The notes under the pieces are model-generated. The model was given only the letters and a program-made list of their open reading frames with translations, searched no databases and had not been told where the DNA came from. Source: Candidatus Omnitrophota bacterium (lineage in GTDB: Bacteria; Omnitrophota; Gorgyraeia; Gygaellales; Profunditerraquicolaceae). Taken from it: a DNA stretch of 64,000 bases. The translations under genes and the position numbers were made by a program. Shown here one piece after another: positions 1 through 54,765 of this stretch (position 1 is the first letter of the stretch; each line of letters begins with the position of its first letter). The stretch spans positions 2,113-66,112 of the forward strand of contig JAQUOV010000002.1 in NCBI GenBank assembly GCA_028716965.1. Direction: 5' to 3'.

Positions 1-253
1 TGAATATAATCTCAGGATATTTGATAATAGAAAAAATGGCCCATGCCTTCTGGGCATGGGAACAGTATTTATCCCTTCCAGTTCTCCAATTTCTTGCTGA
101 TGCCATTCCAAGGGAAAATAGACCAGTTTTACCTTATGGCCTTTTTTATTGAATTCCTTGGCAATATAGACAATTCGCACCGTCCATGGTTCGAGGCTAG
201 AATATATATCATGGGGGTGAACCATAAGTATGTTCATTTTAGCCCCCCGGAAA
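1..253 (-). CDS. Partial CDS that runs off the left edge; N-terminus of a GT-B-fold (GT4-like) glycosyltransferase
   Basis: The minus-strand reading frame from ATG at 253 stays open to position 1. Translation is MNILMVHPHDIYSSLEPWTVRIVYIAKEFNKKGHKVKLVYFP..., which matches the typical GT4 N-terminal pattern (hydrophobic start, then ...LA..L...GH.V.l). A G-rich SD-like stretch lies upstream. It is absent from the ORF track, probably because there is no in-window stop. Confidence 0.4.
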
Positions 254-366
254 AATCAGGATTCGCTTGACCTTCTTTAAAACATATAAGCCTAAGTCCA
301 TTGCAAAACAAAGAAGAGCCAAATTTAATACCAATAATGCTCTAAGAAATTTATTTTCACGCATTT

Positions 367-5757: not shown

Positions 5758-6783
5758 TTAAGCTATCTTTTCTTCCTCGTACCAGCAATTAATTATATGG
5801 TGGCAGTTTTTCTTACAAGAAGCCATCTCTCCCCTTCTCTCTTGCGCTTTTACAGAATACCAGATGTCCTTTATATCAGCATCCCTGATATTGCCTATAC
5901 TCTCCATATAAGGACAAAGTTTAATACTACCGTCGGGAGAAACGGTAAAGCTGTTTCCATTTGTTACATTGCAGGAATATTTCTTTACAAATTCATTTGG
6001 ATTGCGGAAATATGATTTAAAAAGCTCAAGCTGCGAAATAGGGTTATTTATTTTGTCCGCTGCGCCTTGTGCTAAAGGATCTTTTAATTTAATTAAACTG
6101 TCAATAACCATGTTAACCTCATTTAATGCTTTTGGCCAAAGAAAAGCGAATTCGTCTCTTCTATACCATTCATCCTGAGGTGCGCTATGGAAAGGCTGTA
6201 CTACCGCTTGAAAGAATACAGAACGAATCCGATGATCTTTTTTTACCCAATCGGCCAACGCCAGGAGTTCAGTCAAATTTGGCGCCATTATTACCGTATC
6301 AATTGCTATCTCTAAGGAAGAACGGAATTTATCAAGGAATGTTATTGCATCCATTAATTTTTTATGGCTATCAGGCTTCCCTCGTAGATAATCATGCGTT
6401 TCTTTATTCAAACTATATAATGTCAAGGCAATATAATTTAACCCGGCCTCAACAAGCCGCTGCGCACATCCTGCATCGATAAAATAACCACTTGTTGCTA
6501 ATGATGTCCTGAATCCGTTTCTGTTGGAAAAACTGATGAGCTCTATAAGTTTATCCGGAAACAACAAAGGCTCGCCGCCGCCGAATATCATATTAAAATC
6601 AGGGGCAGCGAATTTACCTAAAGAAAGGATGAAATTCTTCCAATCAGCTTGGCTTGGCCTTCTGATACCGGATTCATCGTTTTGCCAAAGCCGGCACATC
6701 CTGCAGCGCAAGGAACAACCAAGCGTAAGTAATAAAATGCAGGCTTTAGGGATATTTTCCTGGTGTTTATTTAATGTTTCCAT
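5758..6783 (-). CDS. Radical SAM/SPASM-domain protein, tandem-array paralog
   Basis: CSLRCRMC, GGGEPLL, SGYFID, and a C-terminal cluster C..C...CxxxCxxxxxC (CNVTNG...LCPYME...CKKNCHHIINCWY). Confidence 0.75.
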   Translation of the reverse strand: METLNKHQENIPKACILLLTLGCSLRCRMCRLWQNDESGIRRPSQADWKNFILSLGKFAAPDFNMIFGGGEPLLFPDKLIELISFSNRNGFRTSLATSGYFIDAGCAQRLVEAGLNYIALTLYSLNKETHDYLRGKPDSHKKLMDAITFLDKFRSSLEIAIDTVIMAPNLTELLALADWVKKDHRIRSVFFQAVVQPFHSAPQDEWYRRDEFAFLWPKALNEVNMVIDSLIKLKDPLAQGAADKINNPISQLELFKSYFRNPNEFVKKYSCNVTNGNSFTVSPDGSIKLCPYMESIGNIRDADIKDIWYSVKAQERRGEMASCKKNCHHIINCWYEEEKIA

Positions 6784-6807
6784 TGCCGATAAGCCTTGTT
6801 TTAATTT

Positions 6808-8238
6808 TCATCTATTTGTATTTTGCCAATATGGTTTTAAATTATAATCTAAACATGCCTTAGTTAACCTCTTATGCCTATTAAGCCTTATCTCTAAAGT
6901 GTTGGTTAAATCTTTAGTAAACCAAGCAAACCAGTCATTTATCAGTGTCGTATCTATACCAAAATCTGGCGCATGCTCATATAAATACATCCCAGGCTCA
7001 ATACTACAGATATTCAAGCTATTTACTTTATCTATCCATTTCGCATTCTTTCTTATGAACTGGATGTTCTTGTCGATATCCTGTTCTGTTTCTCCCGGGA
7101 AACCAACAATAAGATTGATTTCAACACGGATATCTGCTTTTTTAGCTTTTATAATCGAATCTCGCGCATCGCGAACAGTTATGCCTTTTCTCATCAGTTT
7201 TAAAACTCTATCTGAAAGACTTTCGCAGCCAAAGGTAAGCCCTCCGCATCCTGCCTGCCTCATTTTCTTAAACAACTTACTGCTCATATCCCTTCTTACT
7301 GCAGCCTGGCCTCCCCATGCGATACCTGTCTTTTGTTGAAGCAACAGATTGCAAAATGTATCCAAAATACCTAAATTGCCGTTAATTAATAAATCACAGA
7401 ACTCAAATCTTTTTCTTTTATATTTTTGTACATGATGTTGGATTTCGTCAAACACTGACTCGGGGTTACGCCAACGATAGGGTTTCTTTATGTAGAAATC
7501 TCGGCAAAACGCGCAGGCCCGGATACAGCCTCTGCTGCTGATTAAAGGCAAAAGGTCTTCCTGAGAATAATAATCTAAATTAAATTCTTCAAAAGTAGGA
7601 AAAGGTATTTCATTAATATTTATGCGGTTTTCTTCCCTCCCTTTAAGGCACAAAGGATGATCGAGCGGATTATCCTTCCAGGTGATATATTCCAAACACG
7701 GCTGCGCAGTTTTTCCTTGCCGTAAATCGCTTAAAAGGCAAAACAAAGGATATTCCCCTTCTCCAAGGACAAAATAATCTATGCAATCCTTTCTAAACCA
7801 GAAACGGCTTTCTTTGTAATTCACTCCTGGTCCGCCAATTATTATTATTACGTCCTTGCCTATTTTTTTTCTCAACCTCAGAAGAAGCGCATTAAGAAAA
7901 GGGATAGAAGCAAAAGTTGCTGAAAATCCAATTATTTTCGCCTGGAATGAAAGTATCCTGTCAGACCAGTTTTCCAGTTGGCTGAATAAAACTTTTGGTG
8001 CTTCTCCTAAGGCCCAAAAGTTAAAGTCCTGCGTAATCCATTTCTCCTGTAACTCTTTATCTGCTTGGTGGAATATCTCAATATTTAAATCGAATATTTT
8101 AGCGGGGAAACCTTTTGTTTTTAAGAAAGTAGCCAAGTAGGCGATACCCAGGGGAGGAGCATCCACTCCCCAAGGAGGCGCCTGAATTAATAAAATCTTT
8201 TCCTGAGAGCTAATTTCACTCATTAGATTCCGTTGCAT
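6808..8238 (-). CDS. B12-binding-domain radical SAM protein inserted in the tandem array
   Basis: CIRACAFC at about residue 238 after a B12-binding-like N-terminal domain. An alternative ATG at 8223 (M6) would give an 8-bp overlap with the upstream stop. Confidence 0.65.
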   Translation of the reverse strand: MQRNLMSEISSQEKILLIQAPPWGVDAPPLGIAYLATFLKTKGFPAKIFDLNIEIFHQADKELQEKWITQDFNFWALGEAPKVLFSQLENWSDRILSFQAKIIGFSATFASIPFLNALLLRLRKKIGKDVIIIIGGPGVNYKESRFWFRKDCIDYFVLGEGEYPLFCLLSDLRQGKTAQPCLEYITWKDNPLDHPLCLKGREENRININEIPFPTFEEFNLDYYSQEDLLPLISSRGCIRACAFCRDFYIKKPYRWRNPESVFDEIQHHVQKYKRKRFEFCDLLINGNLGILDTFCNLLLQQKTGIAWGGQAAVRRDMSSKLFKKMRQAGCGGLTFGCESLSDRVLKLMRKGITVRDARDSIIKAKKADIRVEINLIVGFPGETEQDIDKNIQFIRKNAKWIDKVNSLNICSIEPGMYLYEHAPDFGIDTTLINDWFAWFTKDLTNTLEIRLNRHKRLTKACLDYNLKPYWQNTNR

Positions 8239-9223
8239 TGGTTTTTTCGTTCTCGAAAAAACAATTAATCATTGATTTACAATTGCTCTTACAGTTTCTT
8301 ATATTATTTCGTACTATTTCCGCTTTCTCGGAGAACCAAATTTCTTCAATATCCTTATTTTCCCGGATATTTCCAATAGGCTCCAAAGATAGACACAAGA
8401 ATATCTTACCTTCCGCATTAACGCTTAATGAATTATAGCCCAAATTACAATGAAACATTTTTACAAATAGTTCGGGATGTTCAAAGTAAGACTTAAAAAC
8501 ATGAAATTGTCCAGGCGGGTTTGTAATTTTATATCCTTTTTCTTTTAAATCCTTAAGCCTCTCTAACACAAAGTTTACTTTTTCTAAGTCGCTTGGCCAA
8601 AGAAATGAATATTCTTTTTTTCTATACCATTCGTTATCAGGAGGAGTAAAAAAGGGCTGGGTTATTGCCTGAAAACTGATATTTGCAATAGCATCATGCT
8701 GGTTGGCCCATTCCGCAAGCTCCGATATGTCATCAAGGTTCTGATGCATTATAGTAGTGACAATGTGAAGGCGCATTAAATTATTTCTTTTCCTGGAGAA
8801 GCGATTAATTGTTTCCATTACCCTTTCATACACCCCATCTACCCCGCGCAAAAAATCATGCGTTTGTTTCTCCAGGCTATCCAATGAAAGGACCAGGGTA
8901 TCTAAACCTGAGTTCATAATTCTATCAAAGAAATCATCATTTAATAAAAAGGAATTTGTAGTCATTGTGGTTGTTAAACCTCTTTTATCGGCATGCTTGA
9001 TCAAGTCTAATATTCCTTTTTTTAGAAGAGGCTCTCCTCCTACAAATTGCACCTGGGCCTTGCCATTTACAAAATCAGCGAAAGAATCTATAAATCTCAA
9101 CCAGTGTCTGTAATCTAACTCATCCTCATTTTTCCTCTGCCACATCTTGCACATTTTACATTTCAAGATGCAAGATTCTGTAATAATTAAATCACAGAAA
9201 GAAGGTTTTTTGTGATTGTCCAT
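8216..9223 (-). CDS. Radical SAM/SPASM-domain protein, tandem-array paralog
   Basis: CILKCKMC, VGGEPLLKKG, TTNSFLL, SLDSL..THDFLRG, and C-terminal CNLGYN...LCLSLEPIGNI...CKSNCKSMINCFF. AAGGA SD before the ATG. Confidence 0.75.
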   Translation of the reverse strand: MDNHKKPSFCDLIITESCILKCKMCKMWQRKNEDELDYRHWLRFIDSFADFVNGKAQVQFVGGEPLLKKGILDLIKHADKRGLTTTMTTNSFLLNDDFFDRIMNSGLDTLVLSLDSLEKQTHDFLRGVDGVYERVMETINRFSRKRNNLMRLHIVTTIMHQNLDDISELAEWANQHDAIANISFQAITQPFFTPPDNEWYRKKEYSFLWPSDLEKVNFVLERLKDLKEKGYKITNPPGQFHVFKSYFEHPELFVKMFHCNLGYNSLSVNAEGKIFLCLSLEPIGNIRENKDIEEIWFSEKAEIVRNNIRNCKSNCKSMINCFFENEKTNATESNE

Positions 9224-9229
9224 ATATCC

Positions 9230-10207
9230 TTAAAGAAGTTTCTTGTTTTCAAAACAATTTAATACGTTAAGGCAGCTTTCTTTGCAATTACGCATTTGTT
9301 CTCTTCTTACCATTGCTTCTGTCGAATACCAAATATCCTTTATAAGACTATCTTTAATATTGCCCACGGCAACCCTAGAACCACATAGCAAAACATCCCC
9401 CGAGGGCCGTATATACATCACATAATTACCTTGGCTGCAAATCATATCCATGCCCAATTTGTTTGGTTGCCTAAAATAGGTTTTAAAAACCTGCAGTTGT
9501 CTTATGGAATTTGATATTTTATAACCCTGTCTTTTGTATTCAATAAGCTGGTTCATAACCGCGTCTAGTTCAATTTCATTGTGTGGCCAAAGATAGCGCA
9601 ATGACTCTCTTTCATACCATTGATCATCTTTATCCGTTGCGATTGGCTGGGATATTGCCTGTAAATAGATTGAACTTAAATCATTATTATTGTTGGCCCA
9701 CTCTACCAGCTCAACCAGATGCTGAATGTTCGGCCCCATAATAACTGCTAAGATACTAATACTTTTTACGCCCTCTTTCTTCAGATTCTTAATAGCTCGC
9801 ATCGCTTGAGCATGCGCCCCTTTAACCCCCCTCAAAGAATCATGCATATCGGCATCAAGGGTATCCAATGATATGCTAATTACATCTAAGCCGCAAGACG
9901 CTATTCTAGCTGCCATAGCTTCATCTATAAGGAAACCGTTTGTCACCATTACCGTGGTAAAACCTTTTCTATGGGCGTGTGCAAGCACATCGATGACCCC
10001 TTTTTTCACCAAAGGTTCCCCTCCTGCAAAATGCAGCTTTACTTTGGAAAACCCGCATTCTGCAAGGCTATCTATAAAATATTTCCACTCTTCAATGGAT
10101 AGTTCATCAGTGTTCTCTCTGGATTCCCATAATCTGCACATTTTACATTTAAAAATGCAGTTTTCGGTAATACCTATATCACAAAAGACAGGCGCATTTA
10201 TCTCCAT
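9230..10207 (-). CDS. Radical SAM/SPASM-domain protein, tandem-array paralog
   Basis: CIFKCKMC, AGGEPLVKKG, and C-terminal CSQGNY...LCGSRVAVGNIKD...CKESCLNVLNCF. About 45% identical by eye to the 8216-9223 product. GAAGGATG SD. Confidence 0.75.
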   Translation of the reverse strand: MEINAPVFCDIGITENCIFKCKMCRLWESRENTDELSIEEWKYFIDSLAECGFSKVKLHFAGGEPLVKKGVIDVLAHAHRKGFTTVMVTNGFLIDEAMAARIASCGLDVISISLDTLDADMHDSLRGVKGAHAQAMRAIKNLKKEGVKSISILAVIMGPNIQHLVELVEWANNNNDLSSIYLQAISQPIATDKDDQWYERESLRYLWPHNEIELDAVMNQLIEYKRQGYKISNSIRQLQVFKTYFRQPNKLGMDMICSQGNYVMYIRPSGDVLLCGSRVAVGNIKDSLIKDIWYSTEAMVRREQMRNCKESCLNVLNCFENKKLL

Positions 10208-10210
10208 GGG

Positions 10211-11245
10211 TCATCCTTCATCCTGAAAATAACAATTTACGATATTATTGCAACTCTTCTGACAACCTTTCATCAATTCTCTTGTTTTCTTCGCCTCTTC
10301 TGAAAACCATATATTCTTAATTTTACCATTCTTGATATTGCCTATCTGGCGCATAAAACAACATAAATGGACATGACCAATAACATTAATATTAAAGATA
10401 TACTCTCCAAAATTACAATTATGCACCCTGGCGAAAGAACCCGGGTTAGCATAATATCTCTTATATACTTCTAGCTGGGAAATAGGATTTAATACCTTGT
10501 ATCCTGCGCGCTTATAGGCAATAACTATATCTATTATCGAAGACAAGGAATCGGGATCTTTTGGCCAAAGTAAACCGTATTCTTCGTCTAAATACCATTT
10601 ATCAATACTTTCCGTCCTAAAAGGCTGCGCTAATGCGACCACTGCTATACCGTTAAAAAACTTATCATTATTCACCCATTCCACAAGATCCTTTAGCCCC
10701 TTGGCATTTTGATGAGTGAGCACGGTATTTATATGGACTGTTCCTTTTTGCCAATATCTTTTTAAATATTTGACCGCCTTCATCAGGCGCATGTACGAGC
10801 CTTGAGTTCCGGTAATAAAATCATGGACATCTGCATCAAGGCTATCCAGTGATATGCTCAACCTGCTTAATCCTGCCATGGCCAACCTTTTTGCCATTGC
10901 CTTATCAATTAAGGTAGCATTAGTAGCTATAGCCGGCTTAAATCCTAACTCAGCGCAAAAGGAAATCAAATCAAGTACGCCTTTCTTTAATAGCGGCTCC
11001 CCTCCGCCCAAATTTACTTCTAATGGCATGGTATCAAATTCTTTTAGAGAAACAAAAAAATCTTTATATTCTTCTATGCTGACCTCATTCTCGGTGCCAT
11101 TTTTCCAAAATCGGCATTTTCTGCATTTTAAATTGCATCTTTCAGTAATAAGTACATCGCAAAATAAAGGGTTTAAAGAACCGCCACTCAATCCTTCTTT
11201 TTGGTTCTTAAGCTGAGTATAAATTGAATCTTGGGCACCGCTCAT
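10211..11245 (-). CDS. Radical SAM/SPASM-domain protein, tandem-array paralog
   Basis: CNLKCRKC, GGGEPLLKKG, and C-terminal CNFGEY...LCCFMRQIGNIKN...CQKSCNNIVNCYF. Confidence 0.75.
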   Translation of the reverse strand: MSGAQDSIYTQLKNQKEGLSGGSLNPLFCDVLITERCNLKCRKCRFWKNGTENEVSIEEYKDFFVSLKEFDTMPLEVNLGGGEPLLKKGVLDLISFCAELGFKPAIATNATLIDKAMAKRLAMAGLSRLSISLDSLDADVHDFITGTQGSYMRLMKAVKYLKRYWQKGTVHINTVLTHQNAKGLKDLVEWVNNDKFFNGIAVVALAQPFRTESIDKWYLDEEYGLLWPKDPDSLSSIIDIVIAYKRAGYKVLNPISQLEVYKRYYANPGSFARVHNCNFGEYIFNINVIGHVHLCCFMRQIGNIKNGKIKNIWFSEEAKKTRELMKGCQKSCNNIVNCYFQDEG

Positions 11246-12225
11246 TTTTCCTCTTCTTCTTTAAAAAAACAGTTTACCATGTTGTTACAGTTAAGCTGGC
11301 AGCAATGCATAGCATCCCTGGATTCCCGAGCTGCTGCTGAATTCCATAATTCCTTTATATTGTCATTTTTAATGTTGCCTATTGGTTTCATAAAACAACA
11401 TAATGAAATATCTCCTTGCGGATTCACATTAATTACATAATCACCTGCGTAACAAGGGGCTTTCCGCGCGCGCTTCGAAGGGTCATTAAAGTAAGTTTTG
11501 AAAATCTCTAATTGCAAAGGAAAATTATGTATGGGGTAGCCTTGGTTTCTTAATCTGATTAGTGCATCCAGCGCAGAATGTACTTCTTGGATCTTCTCCG
11601 GCCACAATAATTGATAAGCGGGATTCAAGTACCAGTCATCACCGGCTTGGGAGAAAAAAGGCTTTGCTATCGCCTGGAAGTATACTCCGCTTAAGAAGCT
11701 GTTATTTTTAATCCAAACAGATAGTTCCCCTATTTCTTTGTAATTTACCCCCGAAATAACAGTAATGATACCCACTCTTAAATCGGGACAAAATCTTTGC
11801 AAATTATCAAAAGCTTTCATTACCCTATCATAGGAGCCCTTAGTCCCTCTTAAGAAATCATGGGTATCAGGATTAATGCTATCCAATGAGATAAACATCT
11901 CCTTTAATCCGGAATCAGCAATCCTTTTAGCCATCTCTTCATCTATAAGATAACCATTGGAAGGCATAAGCGTTTTAAATCCTTTGTCGGTCCCGAACCT
12001 GACAAGTTCAAGTATATCTTTCTTTAATAAGGGCTCTCCGCCGCTAAAAACTATTTCTTTGGAACCATCCAAAACACCTTCCAAGCTATCAATGAAAGAC
12101 TTCCAGTCTTCTGTAGTAATGCTACTTGCCTGAGCAGGTGATTTCCACATCTCGCACATTCTGCATTTTAAGATACACTGAGTTAAAAGTACTATTGAGC
12201 AGGAAGATGGCCTTCTCGTAAGCAT
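11242..12225 (-). CDS. Radical SAM/SPASM-domain protein, tandem-array paralog
   Basis: CILKCRMC, SGGEPLLKKD, and C-terminal CYAGDY...LCCFMKPIGNIKN...CQLNCNNMVNCFF. 4-bp ATGA overlap with the downstream gene. Confidence 0.75.
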   Translation of the reverse strand: MLTRRPSSCSIVLLTQCILKCRMCEMWKSPAQASSITTEDWKSFIDSLEGVLDGSKEIVFSGGEPLLKKDILELVRFGTDKGFKTLMPSNGYLIDEEMAKRIADSGLKEMFISLDSINPDTHDFLRGTKGSYDRVMKAFDNLQRFCPDLRVGIITVISGVNYKEIGELSVWIKNNSFLSGVYFQAIAKPFFSQAGDDWYLNPAYQLLWPEKIQEVHSALDALIRLRNQGYPIHNFPLQLEIFKTYFNDPSKRARKAPCYAGDYVINVNPQGDISLCCFMKPIGNIKNDNIKELWNSAAARESRDAMHCCQLNCNNMVNCFFKEEEEK

Positions 12226-12231
12226 CTTTCT

Positions 12232-13206
12232 TTATTCTCCATAATAACAATTGACCACTAATTCACAGTTATTCTTGCATCTCAACATTTTCTCCCTAAT
12301 ACTGCCGGCCCTGGCCGAAGACCATAAACGCGTAATATCCCCGTCCCTGACATTACCTAATTTATCCAGGAAGAAACATAAATATATATCTCCTACCGCA
12401 TTCACATTTATCGCTTGATAAGCAAGATTACACTTATTTGTTTTAATAAATCCGGCGGGGTTACGAAAATATGATTTAAAGTCTTCAAGCTGCTTCACGG
12501 AGTTTTGTAGTTTACTGCTTTTACTTTTTAGTCTAATCAAAGAATCAATGCCCCGGTCTAACTTATCTGCGTCAGAAGGCCAAAGGGATTCATATTCCTT
12601 TTTCTTAAACCATTCCCAGTCTACCTCTGCCCCAAATGGCCTCATCAGTGCCATAAAATATATGTAATCAAGCTTATGATTGCCTATAACCCATTCAGTA
12701 AGCGCAGACAAACCATCTAGATTGTAAGCGGAGATAACGGTGTTAATGCCCAACTTCAATCTTTCGCCTTTAAATTTGCTCAGATATTCGATTGCCCTCA
12801 TCAGGCGCTGAAAACTATCCTGCCTGCCTCTTAAATAATTATGTACTTCAGGGACAAGGCTGTCCAGCGACAAATTCAACAAACTTAATCCGGATTCAAC
12901 CAATGCATGGGCCATAGGCTCATCAATCGTGTAACCACAAGAAGTTATCACTGAACGCCAACCTTTGCGGCTGATATGTTTAACCAACTCACATATATCT
13001 TTCTTTATTAAAGATTCCCCGCCTATAATGTGTATTTCAAATTGCTCCTGCCTGAATTGCTCAAGGGAATCAACGAATCTCTTACAATCATCAACGCTAA
13101 TCTCATTTTCCTGTGTATTAAGTTGCCATAGATTACACATCTTGCAGCGCAATATACAACTATTGGTGACTGTCAAAAGGCAGGTTTTTGGGTTCTGGAT
13201 CTTCAT
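12232..13206 (-). CDS. Radical SAM/SPASM-domain protein, tandem-array paralog (start moved to the internal ATG)
   Basis: CILRCKMC, GGESLIKKD, and C-terminal CNLAYQ...LCFFLDKLGNVRD...CKNNCELVVNCYY. The ORF-track start at 13239 is a TTG that overlaps the upstream gene by 32 bp. The ATG at M12 (13206) removes the overlap and matches the N-terminal length of the paralogs. Confidence 0.7.
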   Translation of the reverse strand: MKIQNPKTCLLTVTNSCILRCKMCNLWQLNTQENEISVDDCKRFVDSLEQFRQEQFEIHIIGGESLIKKDICELVKHISRKGWRSVITSCGYTIDEPMAHALVESGLSLLNLSLDSLVPEVHNYLRGRQDSFQRLMRAIEYLSKFKGERLKLGINTVISAYNLDGLSALTEWVIGNHKLDYIYFMALMRPFGAEVDWEWFKKKEYESLWPSDADKLDRGIDSLIRLKSKSSKLQNSVKQLEDFKSYFRNPAGFIKTNKCNLAYQAINVNAVGDIYLCFFLDKLGNVRDGDITRLWSSARAGSIREKMLRCKNNCELVVNCYYGE

Positions 13207-13207
13207 G

Positions 13208-14290
13208 TTATCCCTGTATATTATCGGTAATATTTTCAATCTTATAAAAACAATTTACTACTGTATCGCAATCTTTTTTACAGGTATTTATTTCATTCCT
13301 GGCCTTTTCCATGCTTTTTGAAAACCATATTTGAGAAAATTTCTTTTCGCGGATATTGCCCAACGGCGCCATGCCAAAACACATATTTATATCGCCGTAC
13401 GCGTTTATTTCCGGAGCAAGATCGCCCCGGGGACACTTAATCTTTTCCTCGTGGATAAACCGGTGAGGATTCCTAAAATACTCCTTTACTAACCTTAATT
13501 GTTCAGGAGGATTGCAGATTTTATATCCTCTCTCCTTTAATATAGCGAGTTCTTCTAAAATAGCGGATACCTTCTTTATATCACGCGGCCAGATTTCATT
13601 ATAGTCCTTGTTAAGAAACCAATCCTGTTGATAATTTTCGCAGTCAAACGGCTGCAAGCAGGCATTTAGAAACAGGTCATTTATTTTCCCGTTGTTTTGC
13701 GCCCACTCAACAAGCGGTAAAATTTCATCTAGATTCTTCTCCATCATTGTCATGGTAACACCAATACTCAGCCTCTCAGCTTTATCTTCTCCCCTGTATT
13801 TATCTAATAAATCGATTGCTTCCATTACTTTTCGATGGCTACCCTTAATCCCTCTTAAATAGTCGTGGGTTTCCTCTTTGATTCCGTCCAAAGAAAGAAA
13901 TATGCCCTTAAGACCAGCCTGAACAATACGCTGTGACATTAATTCATCAATATAAAAACCATTCGTGGTGATAGAGCTATTAAATCCGCTCCCTTTGATG
14001 TACGAGATAATCTCCATGAGATCTTTTCTTAATAAGGCTTCCCCTCCGATCAAATGAATAAAAATAGGCTTGGAGGCGACCTTCTTAAAATCATCCACAA
14101 AATATTTTATTTCTTTCAAAGAGAGTTCTTTTCTTTCCGGAGATTTCTGTCTATTTTTCCACATATTGCACATTTTACATTTAAAGTTACATTTCTTTGA
14201 AACTACTAAAAGACAAAAAACCGGCTCTGGGACATCCTTCAAAGGAGTGCTTTTAAATAATGCTTTCCTTACAAATGATAGCATATTCAT
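13208..14290 (-). CDS. Radical SAM/SPASM-domain protein, tandem-array paralog
   Basis: CNFKCKMC, IGGEALLRKD, and C-terminal CPRGDL...MCFGMAPLGNIRE...CKKDCDTVVNCFY. Confidence 0.75.
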   Translation of the reverse strand: MNMLSFVRKALFKSTPLKDVPEPVFCLLVVSKKCNFKCKMCNMWKNRQKSPERKELSLKEIKYFVDDFKKVASKPIFIHLIGGEALLRKDLMEIISYIKGSGFNSSITTNGFYIDELMSQRIVQAGLKGIFLSLDGIKEETHDYLRGIKGSHRKVMEAIDLLDKYRGEDKAERLSIGVTMTMMEKNLDEILPLVEWAQNNGKINDLFLNACLQPFDCENYQQDWFLNKDYNEIWPRDIKKVSAILEELAILKERGYKICNPPEQLRLVKEYFRNPHRFIHEEKIKCPRGDLAPEINAYGDINMCFGMAPLGNIREKKFSQIWFSKSMEKARNEINTCKKDCDTVVNCFYKIENITDNIQG

Positions 14291-14300
14291 AACTATTGGC

Positions 14301-15338
14301 CTAAAAAGTGGGCTTATTCAACACAGGTTTATCTTTAAAAGGTAACTCATCTTCATAGAAACAATTAATCATAATATGACAATTTTTCTTACAACCATAT
14401 ACCTCTTTTCTTGTTTCTTGTGTTTTAACTGAATCCCACAATACAGCAAGATTATCGGTTTTAATATTCCCGATCCCCTCAGTCAAACAACAAAAGAAAA
14501 TCTTTCCATATGGATCTACGTGAAATTCATAATCGCCGAGATTACATTTTATTTTCTTTAGAAATATGTTCGGTTCAGCAAAATATTCATTAAAATGCAG
14601 GAAATGATTTTGATGGTTTCCAATTTTATATCCGCTAGCCTTCATTTTTTTTAAGCATCTCATAACTTTTGAAACTTTCTTCAAATCGTCGGGCCAAAGG
14701 AATCTGTTTTTGTCGTTCTTAAACCAGTCCCTATCCATCTCTTGGCAAAAAGGCTGCGTTACTGCCTGAAAGCTGATCATCTCTATTTTTCTGTTTCTTT
14801 GTGTCCATTTCGCAAGCTTTAAGATCTCATTCAGGTTAGTTTTCATTATTGTCGTAAGGATCGCTATCTTTAATTTACTGCCCTTGCGATACTTGTCTAA
14901 ATACTCTATGGCCTTGATTATCCTTCTAAAGCTACCCTTTACTCCTCTTATAAAATCGTGCGTTTGCGACCGTATACCATCCAACGATAAAGTGAGAGTA
15001 CCCAACTTTGAGTTAACGATCTCCTTTGCCATTAGTTCATCTATAAGGAAGCCATTAGTCACTATATTTGTCCTGTAACCTTCTCCTGAAATAAAATTAA
15101 CCAGCTCCAATACCCCCTCAGACATCAACGGTTCTCCTCCCGACAAATGAAACTCAAAATCCGTATCAACGAAGCCACGCAGAGATCGCACAAAATTCTT
15201 TTTTTGCTGCATAGTAGTCTGTGTATTATAATCATCCTTTATATTCCAGATATTGCACATCTTGCATCTAAACATGCAGCGGTAATTAATCACCCAGCAG
15301 CAAAAACGGGGCTTAAGTAGAGGATTATAGCTATCCAT
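14301..15338 (-). CDS. Radical SAM/SPASM-domain protein, tandem-array paralog
   Basis: CMFRCKMC, SGGEPLMSEG, and C-terminal CNLGDYEF...FCCLTEGIGNIKT...CKKNCHIMINCFY. Confidence 0.75.
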   Translation of the reverse strand: MDSYNPLLKPRFCCWVINYRCMFRCKMCNIWNIKDDYNTQTTMQQKKNFVRSLRGFVDTDFEFHLSGGEPLMSEGVLELVNFISGEGYRTNIVTNGFLIDELMAKEIVNSKLGTLTLSLDGIRSQTHDFIRGVKGSFRRIIKAIEYLDKYRKGSKLKIAILTTIMKTNLNEILKLAKWTQRNRKIEMISFQAVTQPFCQEMDRDWFKNDKNRFLWPDDLKKVSKVMRCLKKMKASGYKIGNHQNHFLHFNEYFAEPNIFLKKIKCNLGDYEFHVDPYGKIFFCCLTEGIGNIKTDNLAVLWDSVKTQETRKEVYGCKKNCHIMINCFYEDELPFKDKPVLNKPTF

Positions 15339-15348
15339 AATTTAAAAT

Positions 15349-16347
15349 TCAGGTTGAATATAGAGACTGGTCGTCTTCTATATAACAACAATTGAGCAAT
15401 AAGTGGCAATTTGTTTTACAGTCATTTACTTTATTCCTAATGGCCGCAGCATCCTGTGAATACCATAACTCCCTGATATCGTTATCTCTTATATTGCCGA
15501 TAAAATCTTTAAAAAGACAGAGCTGTATAAAACCATATGCATTAACGCTTATCGCTTTGCCGCCTACAATACACTTGGCTCTATTGACAAACTTCTGAGG
15601 ATTGTTAAAGTAGGCTTTGTAAGCCCTTAAATGCTCAACCCGATTACTTATCTTTGAACCGTTTTGCTTTCGCCTTATCAATTCCTCAATAACAGAAAGT
15701 ACTTTGTTTTTATCTTTCGGCCAAAGATATTGGTATTCATCCTGCCAGTTATCCGTTAAGGGCCCACTGTAGTTAGGTTGAACAACTACCATAAAATACA
15801 GCCAATCAACTAAATCATTTTCTTCAGCCCACCCGGTCAAAGTAAGCAAATCCTCAATATTCTCATTCATGATGATGCAGCAAATTCCTTTCTTCGTATT
15901 ACGGGAGTACCTGCTTAAGTTATCTAAAGCTTCCATGAGGCGCTGATAAACACCGCTTTTACCCCGGATCCTATCGTGTACTTCCGGACGAAAACTATCA
16001 AGAGAGAGGCTTATCGCATCAAGACCGGAATTGCCGATTTTTTTTGCCATTTCCTTATCGATAAGATATCCGTTTGAGGCTACCGTAGTTCTGAATCCTT
16101 TTTGTTTAGCAAATTTTATTAAATCCAAAATCCCGGGCATAGAAAGCGCCTCGCCTCCCCCAAAATCCAATTCAAAATCTTTATCAACTAATTCACGGAA
16201 TCCGCTGATAAAATTCTTCCATTCTTCCAACGAAGGCAACTCTTCTTTTTTCGGAAGGGGCTCCTGCCATTTATTACACATTTTACAGCGCAACATGCAA
16301 AAATCAGTAGCTGCAATACAGCAAAATTTAGGTTTTATATCATTCAT
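15349..16347 (-). CDS. Radical SAM/SPASM-domain protein, tandem-array paralog (start moved to the internal ATG)
   Basis: CMLRCKMC, GGGEALSMPG, and C-terminal CIVGGK...LCLFKDFIGNIRD...CKTNCHLLLNCCY. The track start at 16440 would overlap the upstream gene by 83 bp. The ATG at M32 (16347) is preceded by AAGGAG and gives the N-terminal length seen in the paralogs. Confidence 0.7.
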   Translation of the reverse strand: MNDIKPKFCCIAATDFCMLRCKMCNKWQEPLPKKEELPSLEEWKNFISGFRELVDKDFELDFGGGEALSMPGILDLIKFAKQKGFRTTVASNGYLIDKEMAKKIGNSGLDAISLSLDSFRPEVHDRIRGKSGVYQRLMEALDNLSRYSRNTKKGICCIIMNENIEDLLTLTGWAEENDLVDWLYFMVVVQPNYSGPLTDNWQDEYQYLWPKDKNKVLSVIEELIRRKQNGSKISNRVEHLRAYKAYFNNPQKFVNRAKCIVGGKAISVNAYGFIQLCLFKDFIGNIRDNDIRELWYSQDAAAIRNKVNDCKTNCHLLLNCCYIEDDQSLYST

Positions 16348-16357
16348 ACATATCTCC

Positions 16358-17401
16358 TTATTTAGTGATAAAAGGATAATCCCCTTCAAAAAAGCAATTA
16401 AGTAAAAAGTGGCAATTATCCTGACATTTTCTGATATCATTTCTGGCTAGCTCTGCTTTTTCAGAATGCCAAATTCTCCCTATATCGTCACCGTTCTTGA
16501 TATTTCCTAAAAGCGCATATCGAAAGCACAAAAATATATCCCCTATCGAACTAACGTGTATTGCCCGGTCCAGATTGCAGGGATTCTTCTTGACGAACCG
16601 GGAAGGGTTATTAAAATAAGCCTTGAATGCTTCCAACTGCTCTACAGAGTTTCCTATCCAGTGCCCTAATTTTCTGCGTCTTATTAACTCATCAATAATT
16701 TCATTGGTTTTTTTAAGATCCTTGGGCCAAAAATAATCATATTTATTTTTATACCACTCTTCGTCAAATTCCGTATTATTCGGTTGCATTGCTGCCATAA
16801 ATAAAATAGAGTTAGTCATATCTCTGTTGCTATTCACCCATTCCGCTAAATGCAGCAGTCCACCAACGGTCTGCTCCATGATAATACTGCAAATTCCCAC
16901 ATGGATAGTCTTTGAATAATGTCTGATATATTTAATGGCATTCAATACCCGCTGCGCGACACCCTCTACCCCCCGCATAGAGTCATGAATTTCCGGCAGA
17001 AGGCTGTCCAGCGACAGGATAATACTGTCTAAGCCTGAATTCACTATTTTTTGGGCCATTTTCTCATCAATAAGGAAACCATTTGAAGCAATAGTAGTCT
17101 TAAAACCTAAGCTTTTAGAATAAGAAATTAATTCAAAGATATCCTCTTTCATTAAGGCTTCCCCGCCGCCGAAATCAATTTCAAACCCTGGGTCAACCAC
17201 ATCCCTTAATTGCTTAATAAATCTCTTCCATTCTTCGGTAGCAGGCTGGGGGATTCCCATCGTTCCGGCATCTTCCTTCCATTTCTGGCACATTTGACAT
17301 TTTAACATGCAACTGTCCACAATACCGATACAACAAAAACCTGGTTTTGCAATTTCCGGTTTTACGCTTGCGCTCTTATTCTTTTCTAACATATCATCCA
17401 T
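16358..17401 (-). CDS. Radical SAM/SPASM-domain protein, tandem-array paralog
   Basis: CMLKCQMC, GGGEALMKED, and C-terminal CNLDRA...LCFRYALLGNIKN...CQDNCHFLLNCFF. Confidence 0.75.
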   Translation of the reverse strand: MDDMLEKNKSASVKPEIAKPGFCCIGIVDSCMLKCQMCQKWKEDAGTMGIPQPATEEWKRFIKQLRDVVDPGFEIDFGGGEALMKEDIFELISYSKSLGFKTTIASNGFLIDEKMAQKIVNSGLDSIILSLDSLLPEIHDSMRGVEGVAQRVLNAIKYIRHYSKTIHVGICSIIMEQTVGGLLHLAEWVNSNRDMTNSILFMAAMQPNNTEFDEEWYKNKYDYFWPKDLKKTNEIIDELIRRRKLGHWIGNSVEQLEAFKAYFNNPSRFVKKNPCNLDRAIHVSSIGDIFLCFRYALLGNIKNGDDIGRIWHSEKAELARNDIRKCQDNCHFLLNCFFEGDYPFITK

Positions 17402-17423
17402 AACTTTTCCTTTATTTAAATTT

Positions 17424-18455
17424 CTATTCTATGGTAAAGGGGTAATCGCCCTTGAAATAGCAATTAAGCAAGAAATGGCAATTGTTTTTGCAATTTCCAA
17501 TATCCTCTCGGACTTGCGCCGCATTATCAGAACTCCAAAGTTGCGCGATATCATCCGTTTTAATATTCCCTAATTTTCCCCAATGATAGCAGAGGAATAT
17601 GTCGCCGCAGGAACTGATGTGCAATGCAGAGCCCATATTGCATTTTGTGGATTTCACAAAACGTTCAGGAAATTGATAGTATAATTTGAACGCCTCCAGC
17701 TGACAAACCTGATTCGTTATTTTAGAGTTATTTTTCTTTAGTTTTATAAGTTCATCTATAACCACGCATGCCCTTAGGGGGTCTTTCGGCCAAAGGCAAT
17801 CAAACTCTTCTTTTAAGTACCATTGTGCATCTAAAACTGTATTATTCGGCTGCATTGCTGCCATAAAATATACTGAATTCAATCTTTTATCGTTATCTAC
17901 CCATTCTGCAAGCTTAACTACATCTTCAATGTTTTTATCATATATCACAGAACATATTCCTTTATAAAGCTCACTGCAGGATTTATCCAGGGAACTTATG
18001 GCGCCCATTACTGCCCTATACACACCCTTGACTCCTCTTAAATAATCATGCGTGTCTTCTTGCAAGCTATCTAAGGATAAAATAATACTATCCAATCTTG
18101 AATCGGAGATTTTTTTTACAGTATTTTCGTCAATCAGATAACCGTTCGTTGCGATATTAACGTCCAACCTCTTCGATTTGCAAAAACTTACAAGTTCCCA
18201 AAGCCCCTCCTTCAATAGCGGCTCACCTCCGCCGAAATTTATTTGGATTGGCTTATCGGTTATCTTCTTTAAAGAATTCACGCAACGCTTCCAATCTTCC
18301 AGCGTAGGAGCACCTGTCCTATCTTTAATAAAAATGTCTTCCTTCCATTTCCGGCACATCTTGCATTTCAAAATACAATCATCTATAATGCCAAAACATA
18401 TAAAATCGGGCTTCACTTTCTGCTTTTCCCTTTTTCTAGAAATAATGGTTTTCAT
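17424..18455 (-). CDS. Radical SAM/SPASM-domain protein, tandem-array paralog (first gene of the array)
   Basis: CILKCKMC, GGGEPLLKEG, and C-terminal CNMGSA...LCYHWGKLGNIKT...CKNNCHFLLNCYF. A 167-bp non-coding region lies upstream (18456-18622). Confidence 0.75.
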   Translation of the reverse strand: MKTIISRKREKQKVKPDFICFGIIDDCILKCKMCRKWKEDIFIKDRTGAPTLEDWKRCVNSLKKITDKPIQINFGGGEPLLKEGLWELVSFCKSKRLDVNIATNGYLIDENTVKKISDSRLDSIILSLDSLQEDTHDYLRGVKGVYRAVMGAISSLDKSCSELYKGICSVIYDKNIEDVVKLAEWVDNDKRLNSVYFMAAMQPNNTVLDAQWYLKEEFDCLWPKDPLRACVVIDELIKLKKNNSKITNQVCQLEAFKLYYQFPERFVKSTKCNMGSALHISSCGDIFLCYHWGKLGNIKTDDIAQLWSSDNAAQVREDIGNCKNNCHFLLNCYFKGDYPFTIE

Positions 18456-18622
18456 TATCTACTGAATTTTCTCCAATCTATTCCCTTGCTTATGCATATA
18501 TTACGCCACGCTATATATTTAAACCCTCGCTTAAGCGCGTAGAAAAAACCGCCTGTTTTATTATGCTTCATGAATTTCTGCCAGAGTGTTTCTGCCATAT
18601 TCTGCCTCCTTTATCAAACCGT

Positions 18623-28913: not shown

Positions 28914-29164
28914 ACTACATTCCTTAATTTTTAGACAATAACTTTACCCTACAATAAACAATCCTCATAGGAACGTATACCCAAACCTTATACCTGCTAG
29001 GGGAAAAGACGTCAAAGAATACGGGTTCACGATTAATTGGCCTGCCTCCGGGACTGGTTTAAAAACCTCTAAGGTAGGAGACCGGTAAATCAACAAACTA
29101 TACTGCCAGCTATATTATATTCTGTATTCCATTGTTCTACAAGTACTTTTGCTTCAAGAAACAG

Positions 29165-36033: not shown

Positions 36034-36036
36034 TTT

Positions 36037-53687: not shown

Positions 53688-53705
53688 ATTATTAATGTCA
53701 AGATT

Positions 53706-54749: not shown

Positions 54750-54765
54750 AAATTAACCCGCACAA

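What the first reader, a model, noticed from the sequence alone, without database searches (positions are those of the whole stretch)
5758..18455. Eleven-gene tandem array of paralogous radical SAM/SPASM enzymes, plus a fused double-domain member, all with intact catalytic motifs
What the sequence shows: 11 consecutive single-domain genes of 325-363 aa, separated by 3-24 bp gaps or small overlaps. Each carries CxxxCxxC (CILKCKMC and variants), GGEPLL, TN(G/S)xLID, SLDSL..HDxLRG, and a C-terminal C..C...CxxxCxxxxxC cluster.

The adjacent 686-aa protein (2075-4135) is a head-to-tail fusion of two such domains. By eye, pairwise identity within the array is only about 35-50%, so these are old paralogs that have diverged, not recent copies. 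No copy has lost its Fe-S ligands.

What I infer: thirteen intact homologous catalytic domains in one operon suggests that each one does a distinct radical step, at a different position or on a different substrate, on a common scaffold. This would be a radical tailoring assembly line. I know of no described system with this architecture.
Basis: partly seen in the sequence, partly recalled or inferred. Interest (0 to 1): 0.92.

Follow-up and report, generated by a model that had tools for sequence, protein, structure and literature searches.

The report
Conserved radical-SAM paralog array, glycan-export operon
An uncultured Omnitrophota bacterium carries an old, strictly ordered row of about a dozen related radical-SAM enzymes inside an operon that starts with an O-antigen-type polysaccharide exporter, which points to an undescribed, heavily radical-tailored surface glycan rather than redundant gene copies.

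Summary
The array is real. Window 5758-18455 holds 11 paralogous radical SAM genes of 325-363 aa, and a 686-aa fusion of two more domains lies at 2075-4135. Pairwise identity is 30-49%.

- The 11 genes are not all consecutive. A B12-binding radical SAM gene (6808-8238) splits them 1 + 10.
- The N-terminal half of the fusion has lost three of the five auxiliary-cluster cysteines, and this loss is conserved in orthologs.
- The operon does not start at 18455. It runs from Wzm/Wzt (28913) down to a GT4 gene at the left edge of the window.

Related loci show the same gene order: Wzm-Wzt-rSAM1063-B12-SPASM409-orf47-pK…pB-B12-pA-B12-fusion-rSAM571. These loci come mostly from Omnitrophota MAGs and one single-cell genome. 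Each paralog has a 1:1 ortholog (54-76% identical, against about 36% between paralogs), and dN/dS is 0.06-0.13. The copies are therefore ancient and individually maintained.

The family reaches no curated NCBIfam cut-off. Its auxiliary domain is closest to the BtrN twitch domain. Wzt carries three galactose-mutarotase-like domains, and the same domain is fused to two other radical SAM enzymes in the operon.

Best reading: position-specific radical tailoring of a lipid-linked glycan before ABC export. The substrate is inferred, not shown. I found no description of this system in the searched literature.

The parts
28131..28913 (-). Wzm-like ABC-2 permease, first gene of the operon
   Evidence: Pfam ABC2_membrane, 47 bits. 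It is conserved next to Wzt in L018 and L022.
25303..28125 (-). Wzt-like ABC ATPase (940 aa) with a 710-aa C-terminal extension made of three ~220-aa all-beta 'X' domains
22108..25299 (-). 1063-aa protein with two X domains, a Y domain and a radical SAM/SPASM core
   Evidence: Pfam Radical_SAM and SPASM. X-domain similarity to the Wzt extension at E 1e-17; Y-domain similarity to the N-terminus of the 571-aa protein at E 3e-21. A 33-nt x3.9 repeat lies in the linker.
19920..22103 (-). 727-aa class-B (B12-binding) radical SAM with one C-terminal X domain
   Evidence: Pfam B12-binding and Radical_SAM. The best NCBIfam match is HpnJ at 241 bits, below the 578 cut-off. The X domain matches Wzt at E 4e-9.
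18623..19852 (-). 409-aa radical SAM/SPASM protein of a different family from the array
   Evidence: Pfam hits. It scores only 78 bits on the array-family HMM. It is conserved upstream of pK in L016, L019, L020 and L022.
18455..18598 (-). orf47, a conserved basic and aromatic 47-aa gene whose stop overlaps the pK start
   Evidence: It is 65-87% identical in L016, L020 and L022 (E about 1e-33), with a partial copy at the edge of L009. dN/dS is 0.17. It is annotated as hypothetical in the source MAG.
17424..18455 (-). paralog pK (343 aa)
   Evidence: Family HMM 472 bits. Orthologs are 50-88% identical. dN/dS 0.078.
16358..17401 (-). paralog pJ (347 aa)
   Evidence: Family HMM 477 bits. Orthologs are 54-88% identical. 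dN/dS 0.081.
15349..16440 (-). paralog pI (maximal ORF 363 aa; the likely start is the internal Met at 16347, giving 332 aa)
   Evidence: Family HMM 469 bits, starting at residue 29 of the stop-to-stop stretch. Orthologs are 68-90% identical.
14301..15338 (-). paralog pH (345 aa)
   Evidence: Family HMM 472 bits. Orthologs are 54-66% identical.
13208..14290 (-). paralog pG (360 aa)
   Evidence: Family HMM 454 bits. Orthologs are 51-75% identical.
12232..13239 (-). paralog pF (maximal ORF 335 aa from TTG; an ATG at 13206 is the likely start)
   Evidence: Family HMM 472 bits. Orthologs are up to 68% identical.
11242..12225 (-). paralog pE (327 aa)
   Evidence: Family HMM 479 bits. dN/dS 0.117.
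10211..11245 (-). paralog pD (344 aa)
   Evidence: Family HMM 468 bits. dN/dS 0.059.
9230..10207 (-). paralog pC (325 aa)
   Evidence: Family HMM 454 bits. dN/dS 0.118.
8216..9223 (-). paralog pB (335 aa), the copy used for structure prediction
   Evidence: The AF2 model has pLDDT 90.5. Foldseek best hits are SkfB, SuiB, CteB, DesII and BlsE. dN/dS 0.126. P0001 is 100% identical and comes from a Candidatus Omnitrophica MAG.
6808..8238 (-). 476-aa B12-binding radical SAM that interrupts the array
   Evidence: Pfam B12-binding (51 bits) and Radical_SAM. It is conserved between pB and pA in L001, L003-L006, L011-L013 and L021.
5758..6783 (-). paralog pA (341 aa)
   Evidence: Family HMM 457 bits. 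dN/dS 0.086.
4138..5739 (-). 533-aa class-B-like radical SAM
   Evidence: Pfam Radical_SAM. The best NCBIfam matches are BchE, ApyD and PhpK, all below cut-off.
2075..4135 (-). 686-aa fusion of two family domains. FUSn has a degenerate auxiliary-cluster site; FUSc is intact.
   Evidence: Two HMM domains, 444 and 477 bits. The Cys to Y/S/G changes in FUSn are conserved in 6 genomes. dN/dS 0.099.
367..2082 (-). 571-aa protein with a Y domain and a radical SAM/SPASM-like core
   Evidence: Pfam hits. The Y domain is shared with the 1063-aa protein. It is conserved at the end of the array in L008-L010, L013 and L021.
239..364 (-). orf41, a conserved hydrophobic 41-aa peptide
   Evidence: The translations from the window and from L021 are similar along their whole length. 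It is called as a gene in L021.
1..237 (-). N-terminus of a GT4 glycosyltransferase that runs off the window
   Evidence: Translation. The equivalent gene in L021 carries Glyco_transf_4 and Glycos_transf_1.

Best explanation
The array is part of a conserved, mostly Omnitrophota, operon of about 29 kb for a Wzm/Wzt-exported envelope glycan.

A lineage-specific family of small radical SAM enzymes expanded by old local tandem duplication. The enzymes have a BtrN-like twitch or partial-SPASM auxiliary domain and no peptide-recognition domain. The expansion produced 11 single-domain genes and one two-domain fusion.

Each copy is now a separate ortholog group that is kept in a fixed position and under purifying selection. 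The copies are therefore not redundant.

Proposed mechanism (inferred):
1. Each enzyme reductively cleaves SAM.
2. The resulting 5'-deoxyadenosyl radical abstracts one particular C-H of one particular sugar, or one position, of a cytoplasmic lipid-linked glycan. A less likely alternative is that the substrate is a nucleotide-sugar precursor.
3. The auxiliary cluster handles the electron, as in BtrN-type dehydrogenation. The outcome would be oxidation, epimerisation or dehydration.
4. The three B12-type radical SAM enzymes in the operon probably add C-methyl or related modifications.
5. Three mutarotase-like domains on Wzt, and the same domain on two radical SAM enzymes, recognise the glycan.
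6. Wzm/Wzt then exports the glycan.

Shown here: family membership, the ancient 1:1 orthology, collinearity, purifying selection, linkage to the exporter, and the fold of the shared domain. Inferred: the substrate, the chemistry, and 'one enzyme, one position'.
For: **Enzyme family**
- Radical SAM and SPASM Pfam hits.
- No NCBIfam model reaches its cut-off; the best is about 95 bits against 500.
- The proteins start no more than about 30 residues before CxxxCxxC, and the AF2 model (pLDDT 90.5) opens directly with the barrel.
- A profile of the auxiliary domain alone finds only the BtrN twitch domain in the PDB, at E 4e-4, with the first two cysteines aligned.
- Whole-protein structural neighbours include the sugar or nucleotide enzymes DesII, BlsE, MoaA, viperin and BtrN.

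**Age and non-redundancy**
- Collinear 1:1 orthologs.
- Identity within versus between ortholog groups is 58-73% against 36%.
- dN/dS is 0.06-0.13.
- Adjacent paralogs are the most similar (J-K 49%, I-J 45%, C-D and D-E 41%), which fits tandem duplication.

**Glycan link**
- The operon starts with an ABC-2 permease and an ATPase that matches Aquifex Wzt at E 1e-64.
- Wzm/Wzt sits directly upstream of the radical SAM run in L018 and L022. L016 and L020 carry the upstream rSAM1063/B12/SPASM409 genes next to the array.
- The same domain is fused to the 1063-aa and 727-aa radical SAM enzymes.
- A GT4 gene follows the operon.
- The rest of the window encodes a polysaccharide deacetylase, two carbamoyltransferases, two DegT aminotransferases, a GT2, two PMT_2 enzymes, YfhO and a sulfatase.
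Against: - No substrate, product or transcript was observed.
- There is no glycosyltransferase between Wzm and the last radical SAM gene, so the polymer would have to be built by genes outside that run.
- The closest solved structures by score are RiPP maturases (SkfB, SuiB, CteB), and a conserved 47-aa ORF lies inside the operon.
- The mutarotase-like fold also occurs in a few proteins that are not carbohydrate-active, such as the YidC periplasmic domain, so the fold does not prove sugar binding.
- ABC-2 exporters also move lipids and drugs.
- Array size varies between genomes, from 2 copies to 13 full-length plus one truncated copy per fetched locus. That fits glycan diversity but does not prove it.
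- The number of auxiliary clusters (five conserved Cys plus a near-invariant N-terminal Cys) is unresolved.
Confidence: 0.5

Rival explanations
1. RiPP pathway. The paralogs install many site-specific radical crosslinks or epimerisations on a ribosomal peptide, with orf47 (18455-18598) as the precursor.
For: - orf47 is a real conserved small gene, 65-87% identical in L016, L020 and L022, with dN/dS 0.17.
- It is rich in W, F, Y, K and R. From my own knowledge, these are the residues targeted by SPASM crosslinking enzymes.
- The top sequence and fold neighbours are SkfB, SuiB and CteB.
Against: - The enzymes have no N-terminal RRE/PqqD-like domain, and no Pfam-detectable RRE gene is present in the ORFs scanned (>=120 aa).
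- orf47 occurs only where the SPASM409-to-pK junction exists. It is absent from arrays of 10 paralogs that lack pK (L004, L005).
- In L019, an orf47-like segment is fused in frame to the N-terminus of the SPASM409 homolog (E 1.6e-4). That suggests an enzyme appendage rather than a substrate.
- orf47 is conserved along its whole length, with no variable core.
- The exporter is Wzt-type and has no peptidase domain.
Confidence: 0.12
2. Nucleotide-sugar factory. The paralogs act on soluble activated monosaccharides rather than on the polymer, and each makes a different unusual sugar that is later polymerised.
For: - Known sugar-modifying relatives (DesII, BlsE, BtrN, viperin, MoaA) act on small soluble substrates, and these relatives appear among the neighbours.
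- The single-domain paralogs lack the X domain.
- DegT aminotransferases and other sugar-nucleotide enzymes are nearby.
Against: - The operon contains no nucleotidyltransferases, and the array has no partner dehydratases or aminotransferases.
- Eleven to fourteen distinct sugar precursors would need a matching set of glycosyltransferases, and these are not seen next to the array.
- X domains fused to other radical SAM enzymes of the same operon point to a polymeric ligand.
Confidence: 0.2
3. Lipid tailoring. The enzymes modify an unusual membrane lipid, in a ladderane-, hopanoid- or tetraether-like pathway, and the ABC-2 system exports it.
For: - The second-best PDB sequence hit is the tetraether synthase GDGT-MAS.
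- The 727-aa enzyme is HpnJ-like at 241 bits, and the B12 enzymes weakly hit the 'lipid biosynthesis B12/radical SAM' model TIGR04072.
- Ladderane-type clusters have been called by genome-mining software in Omnitrophota MAGs (PMC9902471).
Against: - All these scores are far below the curated cut-offs.
- No fatty-acid, isoprenoid or squalene-hopene cyclase genes were detected in the 64-kb window.
- The exporter ATPase is closest to O-antigen and teichoic-acid exporters.
- The shared X domain has a carbohydrate-enzyme fold.
Confidence: 0.1
4. One hetero-oligomeric machine. The paralogs are subunits of a single large complex that performs one reaction type, and some copies are structural only.
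For: - The gene order is fixed and many genes have overlapping start and stop codons.
- Two- and three-domain fusions exist (P0142, 1034 aa with 3 domains).
- FUSn has lost auxiliary ligands but stays fused to an intact partner.
Against: - All 13 domains keep CxxxCxxC and GGE, and 12 keep all five C-terminal cysteines. Purely structural subunits would not be expected to do so.
- Arrays with very different copy numbers exist.
Confidence: 0.08

Closest known systems
BtrN (butirosin 2-deoxy-scyllo-inosamine dehydrogenase), the archetypal twitch-domain radical SAM enzyme
   Same: - Both are small enzymes with no N-terminal recognition domain.
- BtrN is the only PDB sequence that a profile of the array's auxiliary domain detects (E 4e-4), with the first two ligand cysteines aligned.
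- BtrN acts on a sugar-like aminocyclitol.
   Different: - Whole-protein similarity is low (TM about 0.5, 11-13% identity).
- The array family has a helical insertion of about 70 residues before the auxiliary domain, and a C-x3-C-x5-C tail instead of CxxC.
- BtrN is a single-copy enzyme in its pathway.
SPASM RiPP maturases (SkfB, SuiB, CteB) and anSME
   Same: - They are the best overall sequence and fold matches (E 1e-14, TM 0.6-0.66).
- The first half of the SPASM motif, C-x9-15-G-x4-C, is present.
   Different: - There is no RRE domain.
- The second half of the 7-Cys motif (CX2CX5CX3C…C) is replaced by C-x3-C-x5-C.
- The neighbourhood has no peptidase or peptide exporter.
AhbD / NirJ / TIGR04053 / PTO1314 families (best NCBIfam hits)
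   Same: The protein size is similar (about 330-390 aa), and they give the best HMM scores in NCBIfam.
   Different: Scores are 75-96 bits against cut-offs of 306-650, and the window contains no tetrapyrrole genes.
Wzm/Wzt ABC-transporter-dependent O-antigen pathway (E. coli O9a, Aquifex aeolicus)
   Same: - There is an ABC-2 permease and an ATPase matching Aquifex Wzt at E 1e-64.
- The ATPase carries a C-terminal non-catalytic extension in the position where Wzt carries its carbohydrate-binding domain. That placement is from my own knowledge of Wzt.
   Different: - The operon is filled with 18 radical SAM genes instead of glycosyltransferases.
Natural-product clusters with several radical SAM genes (for example polytheonamide PoyB/C/D, or anammox 'ladderane' clusters); from my own knowledge
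   Same: Several radical SAM tailoring enzymes sit in one cluster, including class-B (B12) members.
   Different: Those clusters have a handful of radical SAM genes from different families. Here 13 domains of one family stand in a fixed order, with 1:1 orthologs in other, mostly Omnitrophota, genomes.
Radical SAM sugar epimerases and tailoring enzymes acting on oligosaccharides (AviX12, NeoN); from my own knowledge
   Same: They are a precedent for radical H-abstraction on a sugar within an assembled oligosaccharide, with a cysteine acting as H-donor.
   Different: No homology to these enzymes was tested here, and they are single enzymes, not arrays.

Membership tests
Radical SAM superfamily (PF04055) | CxxxCxxC cluster motif, GGE SAM-binding motif, and an HMM score above the gathering threshold | tested here: met
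   All 13 domains have CxxxCxxC and GGE. Pfam scores are 61-94 bits against 29.5 for each of the 11 single-domain genes, and 142 bits for the fusion.
SPASM domain (PF13186) | Pfam SPASM HMM score above 21.5 bits | tested here: met
   Ten of the 11 single-domain paralogs and FUSc score 25.8-46 bits. pJ gives no hit at E<=0.01, and FUSn gives none.
SPASM domain (canonical two-auxiliary-cluster type) | Seven-cysteine motif CX9-15GX4C - gap - CX2CX5CX3C - gap - C | tested here: not met
   Only five conserved cysteines are present: C-x12-13-G-x4-C ... C-x3-C-x5-C. The first half of the motif is met and the second half is not.
Twitch domain (BtrN-like, one auxiliary cluster) | Beta-hairpin plus helix, with four Cys ligands to a single [4Fe-4S] cluster | tested here: inconclusive
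   The auxiliary-domain profile hits only BtrN (E 4e-4), with the first two Cys aligned. The model shows a hairpin (265-275) followed by a helix (299-309). Cluster number cannot be determined from sequence.
RiPP-maturing radical SAM/SPASM enzymes | RRE (PqqD-like) leader-binding domain, either fused or encoded nearby | tested here: not met
   The proteins begin no more than about 30 residues before CxxxCxxC, and the model starts with barrel strand 9-15. No PqqD/RRE Pfam hit was found in any ORF scanned. ORFs shorter than 120 aa were not scanned.
RiPP-maturing radical SAM/SPASM enzymes | Precursor peptide gene that co-occurs with the modifying enzymes | tested here: inconclusive
   orf47 is conserved, but only together with pK. 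It is absent from the 10-copy arrays in L004 and L005.
AhbD / NirJ heme-pathway radical SAM enzymes | NCBIfam equivalog score above cut-off | tested here: not met
   Scores are 77-96 bits against a cut-off of 500 for TIGR04545 and TIGR04055.
Wzm/Wzt-type glycan ABC exporter | ABC-2 permease plus an ATPase homologous to Wzt/TagH | tested here: met
   PF01061 at 47 bits. The ATPase matches Aquifex Wzt at E 1e-64 and TarH/TagH at E 1e-50 to 1e-46.
Wzm/Wzt-type glycan ABC exporter | Canonical small C-terminal carbohydrate-binding domain on Wzt | tested here: not met
   The PDB sequence match stops at residue 242. The extension folds as three mutarotase-like supersandwiches.
Ladderane-type lipid cluster | TIGR04072 B12/radical SAM equivalog together with fatty-acid synthase genes | tested here: not met
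   TIGR04072 scores are 64-112 bits against a cut-off of 360. No FAS or ACP Pfam hits were found in the window.

The most novel reading that the evidence does not exclude
The operon is a polymer-level radical tailoring line. About a dozen position-specific radical SAM enzymes, together with B12-dependent ones, rewrite C-H bonds of an undecaprenyl-linked glycan in the cytoplasm by epimerisation, oxidation or deoxygenation, C-methylation, and perhaps C-C or C-O crosslinks. A Wzt protein with three mutarotase-like reader domains then checks and exports the product. This would give Omnitrophota a class of surface polysaccharide chemistry that has not been described.
Probability: 0.3. Interest if true: 0.92.

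Novelty: new variant of a known kind. Interest (0 to 1): 0.78.

Why it matters
Radical SAM enzymes are known as single tailoring steps in cofactor, RiPP, antibiotic and lipid pathways. A fixed-order set of 11-14 individually conserved paralogs tied to an O-antigen-type exporter has not been described in the searched literature.

If the substrate is a glycan, this would be the first case of extensive radical post-polymerisation editing of a bacterial surface polysaccharide. It would also supply a dozen closely related enzymes with different regio-specificities, which is an ideal set for learning how twitch/SPASM enzymes choose a C-H bond.

The system also bears on Omnitrophota biology. These are ultra-small, uncultured cells with reduced genomes of 0.86-3.2 Mb (PMC10066038). 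This one spends about 29 kb on the operon and carries about 27 radical SAM genes within 64 kb, so the product is probably important for their envelope or for contact with hosts.

Finally, the family has at least 2,024 clusters at 50% identity and no curated model, which is an annotation gap.

Tried and rejected
1. **Collapsed repeat or mis-assembly.** Rejected. The copies are only 30-49% identical, and the same order appears in many independent MAGs and one single-cell genome.
2. **Redundant or decaying copies.** Rejected on 1:1 orthology and dN/dS of 0.06-0.13.
3. **A known curated family.** NCBIfam gave no model above its cut-off for the array or for any other radical SAM gene tested in the window.
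4. **A precursor peptide upstream of wzm.** The 64-aa gene called in L022 is not conserved as an ORF in the window. The conserved DNA there reads as a broken C-terminal remnant of a transposase.
5. **orf47 homologs in the 5.8-billion-protein index.** Only the identical protein itself was found, probably because small ORFs are rarely called. HMM searches of six-frame translations of the loci were more useful.
6. **A locus scan with the 11-paralog alignment.** This failed because no stretch was conserved enough. An alignment of pB orthologs worked.
7. **Exact-match lookup of the pB product.** Nothing was on record.
8. **Promoter and terminator scans.** Counts were at chance level, so they say nothing about operon boundaries.
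9. **A strict search for specificity-determining positions.** Only 2 columns passed. The criterion was too strict and the result is uninformative.
10. **The C-terminal domain of pB alone against the PDB.** No hits. The profile version found BtrN.
11. **Literature searches.** Searches on Omnitrophota with radical SAM, SPASM with paralogs, and radical SAM with Wzt/Wzm found nothing that describes the system.

Full report
**What is in the sequence.** All genes from 1 to 28913 lie on the minus strand and are tightly packed. Between 5758 and 18455 there are twelve ORFs. Eleven of them (325-363 aa) belong to one family. I call them pA (5758-6783) and pB to pK (8216-18455).

The twelfth ORF, at 6808-8238, is a 476-aa B12-binding radical SAM protein of a different class. 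It sits between pA and pB. The array is therefore 1 + 10, not 11 in a row.

The 686-aa ORF at 2075-4135 contains two full-length domains of the family, scoring 444 and 477 bits on a family HMM.

All 13 domains pass the Pfam Radical_SAM threshold. Ten of the eleven single-domain genes and the C-terminal half of the fusion also pass SPASM.

Pairwise identity is 30-49%, median 37%. CxxxCxxC, GGE and a set of W, P, G, N, R and C positions are invariant.

Twelve of the 13 domains have the C-terminal pattern C-x12-13-G-x4-C ... C-x3-C-x5-C. The N-terminal domain of the fusion instead has Y, S and G at the first three positions, and six orthologs share this substitution. The statement that no copy has lost its ligands is therefore wrong for the auxiliary site.

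**Source and reality of the array.** pB is 100% identical to a protein from a Candidatus Omnitrophica MAG, on a 237-kb contig. A scan of species-representative genomes returned 20 loci. Most are Omnitrophota MAGs and one is a single-cell genome. A few bins are labelled Planctomycetia, Patescibacteria group or Margulisiibacteriota.

Many of these loci carry 9-14 family copies within 20 kb, including two-domain fusions. In a library of 1.84 billion cluster representatives, the family profile finds 2,024 proteins at E<=1e-30, and some of them have two or three fused domains. Divergent copies that recur in independent assemblies rule out a collapsed repeat or a chimera.

**Age and non-redundancy.** Mapping every ORF of the loci onto the window genes gives one collinear order: Wzm, Wzt, rSAM1063, B12_727, SPASM409, orf47, pK, pJ, pI, pH, pG, pF, pE, pD, pC, pB, (B12), B12_476, pA, B12_533, fusion, rSAM571, orf41, GT4.

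For most positions the best window paralog is far ahead of the second best, for example 70% against 39%. Mean identity is 58-73% within ortholog groups and 36% between them.

Against the two closest relatives, L021 and L022, dN/dS is 0.06-0.13 for every paralog tested (pA-pE, pJ, pK and the fusion) and for the other radical SAM genes where it could be computed.

Neighbouring paralogs are the most similar (J-K 49%, I-J 45%, C-D and D-E 41%), which fits growth by local tandem duplication.

The duplications therefore predate the divergence of these lineages, and each copy has been kept. Copy number is not fixed, however: some fetched loci hold only pB and pA with the B12 genes (L003, L011), and others hold up to 14 copies (L008).

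**What kind of enzyme.** No NCBIfam model reaches its cut-off. The best hits (AhbD, NirJ2, TIGR04053, PTO1314) score 75-96 bits against cut-offs of 306-650.

The AF2 model of pB is confident (pLDDT 90.5). Its nearest solved structures are the generic SPASM/twitch set: SkfB, SuiB, CteB, DesII, BlsE, MoaA, viperin, anSME, PqqE and BtrN, with TM 0.5-0.66.

Two features stand out:
- The proteins start just before the radical SAM cluster motif, so they have no RRE-type peptide-binding domain.
- A profile of the auxiliary domain alone detects only the twitch domain of BtrN in the PDB, at E 4e-4, with the first two cysteine ligands aligned.

The canonical seven-cysteine SPASM motif is only half present. 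I therefore describe the family as radical SAM with a twitch-like or partial SPASM domain. It probably carries one fully ligated auxiliary cluster plus a spare cysteine, but this is inference.

**Context.** The gene run begins with an ABC-2 permease (28131-28913) and a 940-aa ATPase (25303-28125). The ATPase's nucleotide-binding domain matches the Aquifex O-antigen exporter Wzt at E 1e-64, and teichoic-acid TarH/TagH proteins next.

Its 710-aa C-terminal extension consists of three repeats of a ~220-aa domain. Two copies of the same domain form the N-terminus of the 1063-aa radical SAM protein, and one copy forms the C-terminus of the 727-aa B12 radical SAM protein.

A second domain, Y, is shared by the 1063-aa and 571-aa proteins.

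Wzm/Wzt lies directly upstream of the radical SAM run in L018 and L022. L016 and L020 show the upstream rSAM1063/B12/SPASM409 genes next to the array. Wzt orthologs with the same extension sit on contigs of the same lengths (110,531 and 87,516 bp) as contigs that carry family members.

A GT4 gene follows the operon.

The remaining 35 kb of the window encodes:
- a polysaccharide deacetylase;
- two carbamoyltransferases;
- two DegT aminotransferases and a class-III aminotransferase;
- a GT2, two PMT_2 enzymes and YfhO;
- a sulfatase;
- methyltransferases;
- nine more radical SAM genes.

None of the six additional radical SAM genes I tested against NCBIfam reaches a cut-off. In total there are about 27 radical SAM genes in 64 kb.

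**Interpretation.** The best-supported reading is that the array tailors the polymer that Wzm/Wzt exports, most likely a lipid-linked glycan assembled in the cytoplasm. Each paralog would abstract a particular hydrogen and so produce oxidation, epimerisation or dehydration at one position. The B12 enzymes would add carbon substituents, and the mutarotase-like domains would serve as the common substrate-recognition module. I put this at about 0.5. The subset in which the enzymes act on the assembled polymer, rather than on monomers, I put at about 0.3.

**Rival readings.**
- *RiPP pathway with orf47 (18455-18598) as precursor.* The ORF is real and conserved. It travels only with pK, however, and is missing from ten-copy arrays. 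In L019 an orf47-like segment is fused to an enzyme N-terminus. There is no RRE and no peptide-type exporter.
- *Action on nucleotide sugars.* This fits the chemistry of the nearest sugar enzymes, but not the absence of partner enzymes or the shared polymer-type domain.
- *Lipid tailoring.* This rests only on sub-threshold hits.
- *A single hetero-oligomeric machine.* This is hard to square with the retention of catalytic motifs in all copies.

**Novelty.** Searches of the held literature found no description of this array or of a radical-SAM-filled Wzm/Wzt operon. The searches covered Omnitrophota or Omnitrophica with radical SAM, the main Omnitrophota genomics papers, SPASM with paralogs, and radical SAM with Wzt/Wzm or O-antigen.

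The parts belong to known superfamilies, so I rate the finding as a new variant of a known kind. The system-level architecture appears undescribed, and the product is unknown.

Noticed in passing
window 18455-18598 (-): orf47 is a conserved 47-aa basic, aromatic-rich gene with a good ribosome-binding site. Its stop codon overlaps the pK start. It is present in L016, L020 and L022 (partial in L009), and in L019 an orf47-like segment appears fused in frame to the N-terminus of the SPASM409 homolog.
   Followed up: yes
window 239-364 (-) and 1-237 (-): orf41 is a conserved hydrophobic 41-aa peptide immediately after the last radical SAM gene. The N-terminus of a GT4 glycosyltransferase follows it. 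In L021 the same pair is followed by a GH5-like gene.
   Followed up: partly
window 28914-29171: The region upstream of wzm contains about 70 nt that are nearly identical to L022. This is more conserved than the silent sites of the flanking genes. It reads as the C-terminal remnant of an rve-type transposase, and the reading frame is broken in the window.
   Followed up: partly
window 24384-24511: A perfect 33-nt tandem repeat (3.9 copies) encodes EEERKRQEELA repeats in the linker between the two X domains of the 1063-aa radical SAM protein.
   Followed up: partly
window 52599-62418 (-): A second, duplicated module is present. It has two SPASM radical SAM genes that are 51% identical (52599-53687 and 60632-61717). 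Each is near another radical SAM gene (53706-54749 and 58384-59379, 25% identical) and DegT aminotransferases, followed by a GT2 and YfhO. It looks like a pathway for unusual amino sugars. No curated family matched.
   Followed up: partly
window 32955-34616 (+) and 38462-40102 (-): Two NodU/CmcH-type carbamoyltransferases flank a B12-rSAM / SPASM-rSAM / B12-rSAM trio (34630-38480). The same arrangement is conserved in L022.
   Followed up: no
window 43278-44687 (-): A sulfatase gene has no recognisable anaerobic sulfatase-maturase next to it. The best anSME score among the six additional radical SAM genes tested was 42 bits against a cut-off of 349.
   Followed up: partly
window 40112-42328 (-) and 47906-49711 (-): Two large proteins (738 and 601 aa) have no Pfam or NCBIfam family, or only a faint one.
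   Followed up: no
L021 962-2392: In the closest relative, a 476-aa TPR/GDSL-like gene is inserted between pF and pE, so the array tolerates insertions.
   Followed up: no
P0142, P0171, P0173: The protein library contains family members with three fused domains (1034-1180 aa). This extends the fusion theme beyond the two-domain protein in this window.
   Followed up: no
L014, L015, L017, L018: Family members, and in L018 the Wzm/Wzt-linked array itself, occur in bins labelled Patescibacteria group and Margulisiibacteriota. This could reflect horizontal transfer or mis-binning.
   Followed up: no
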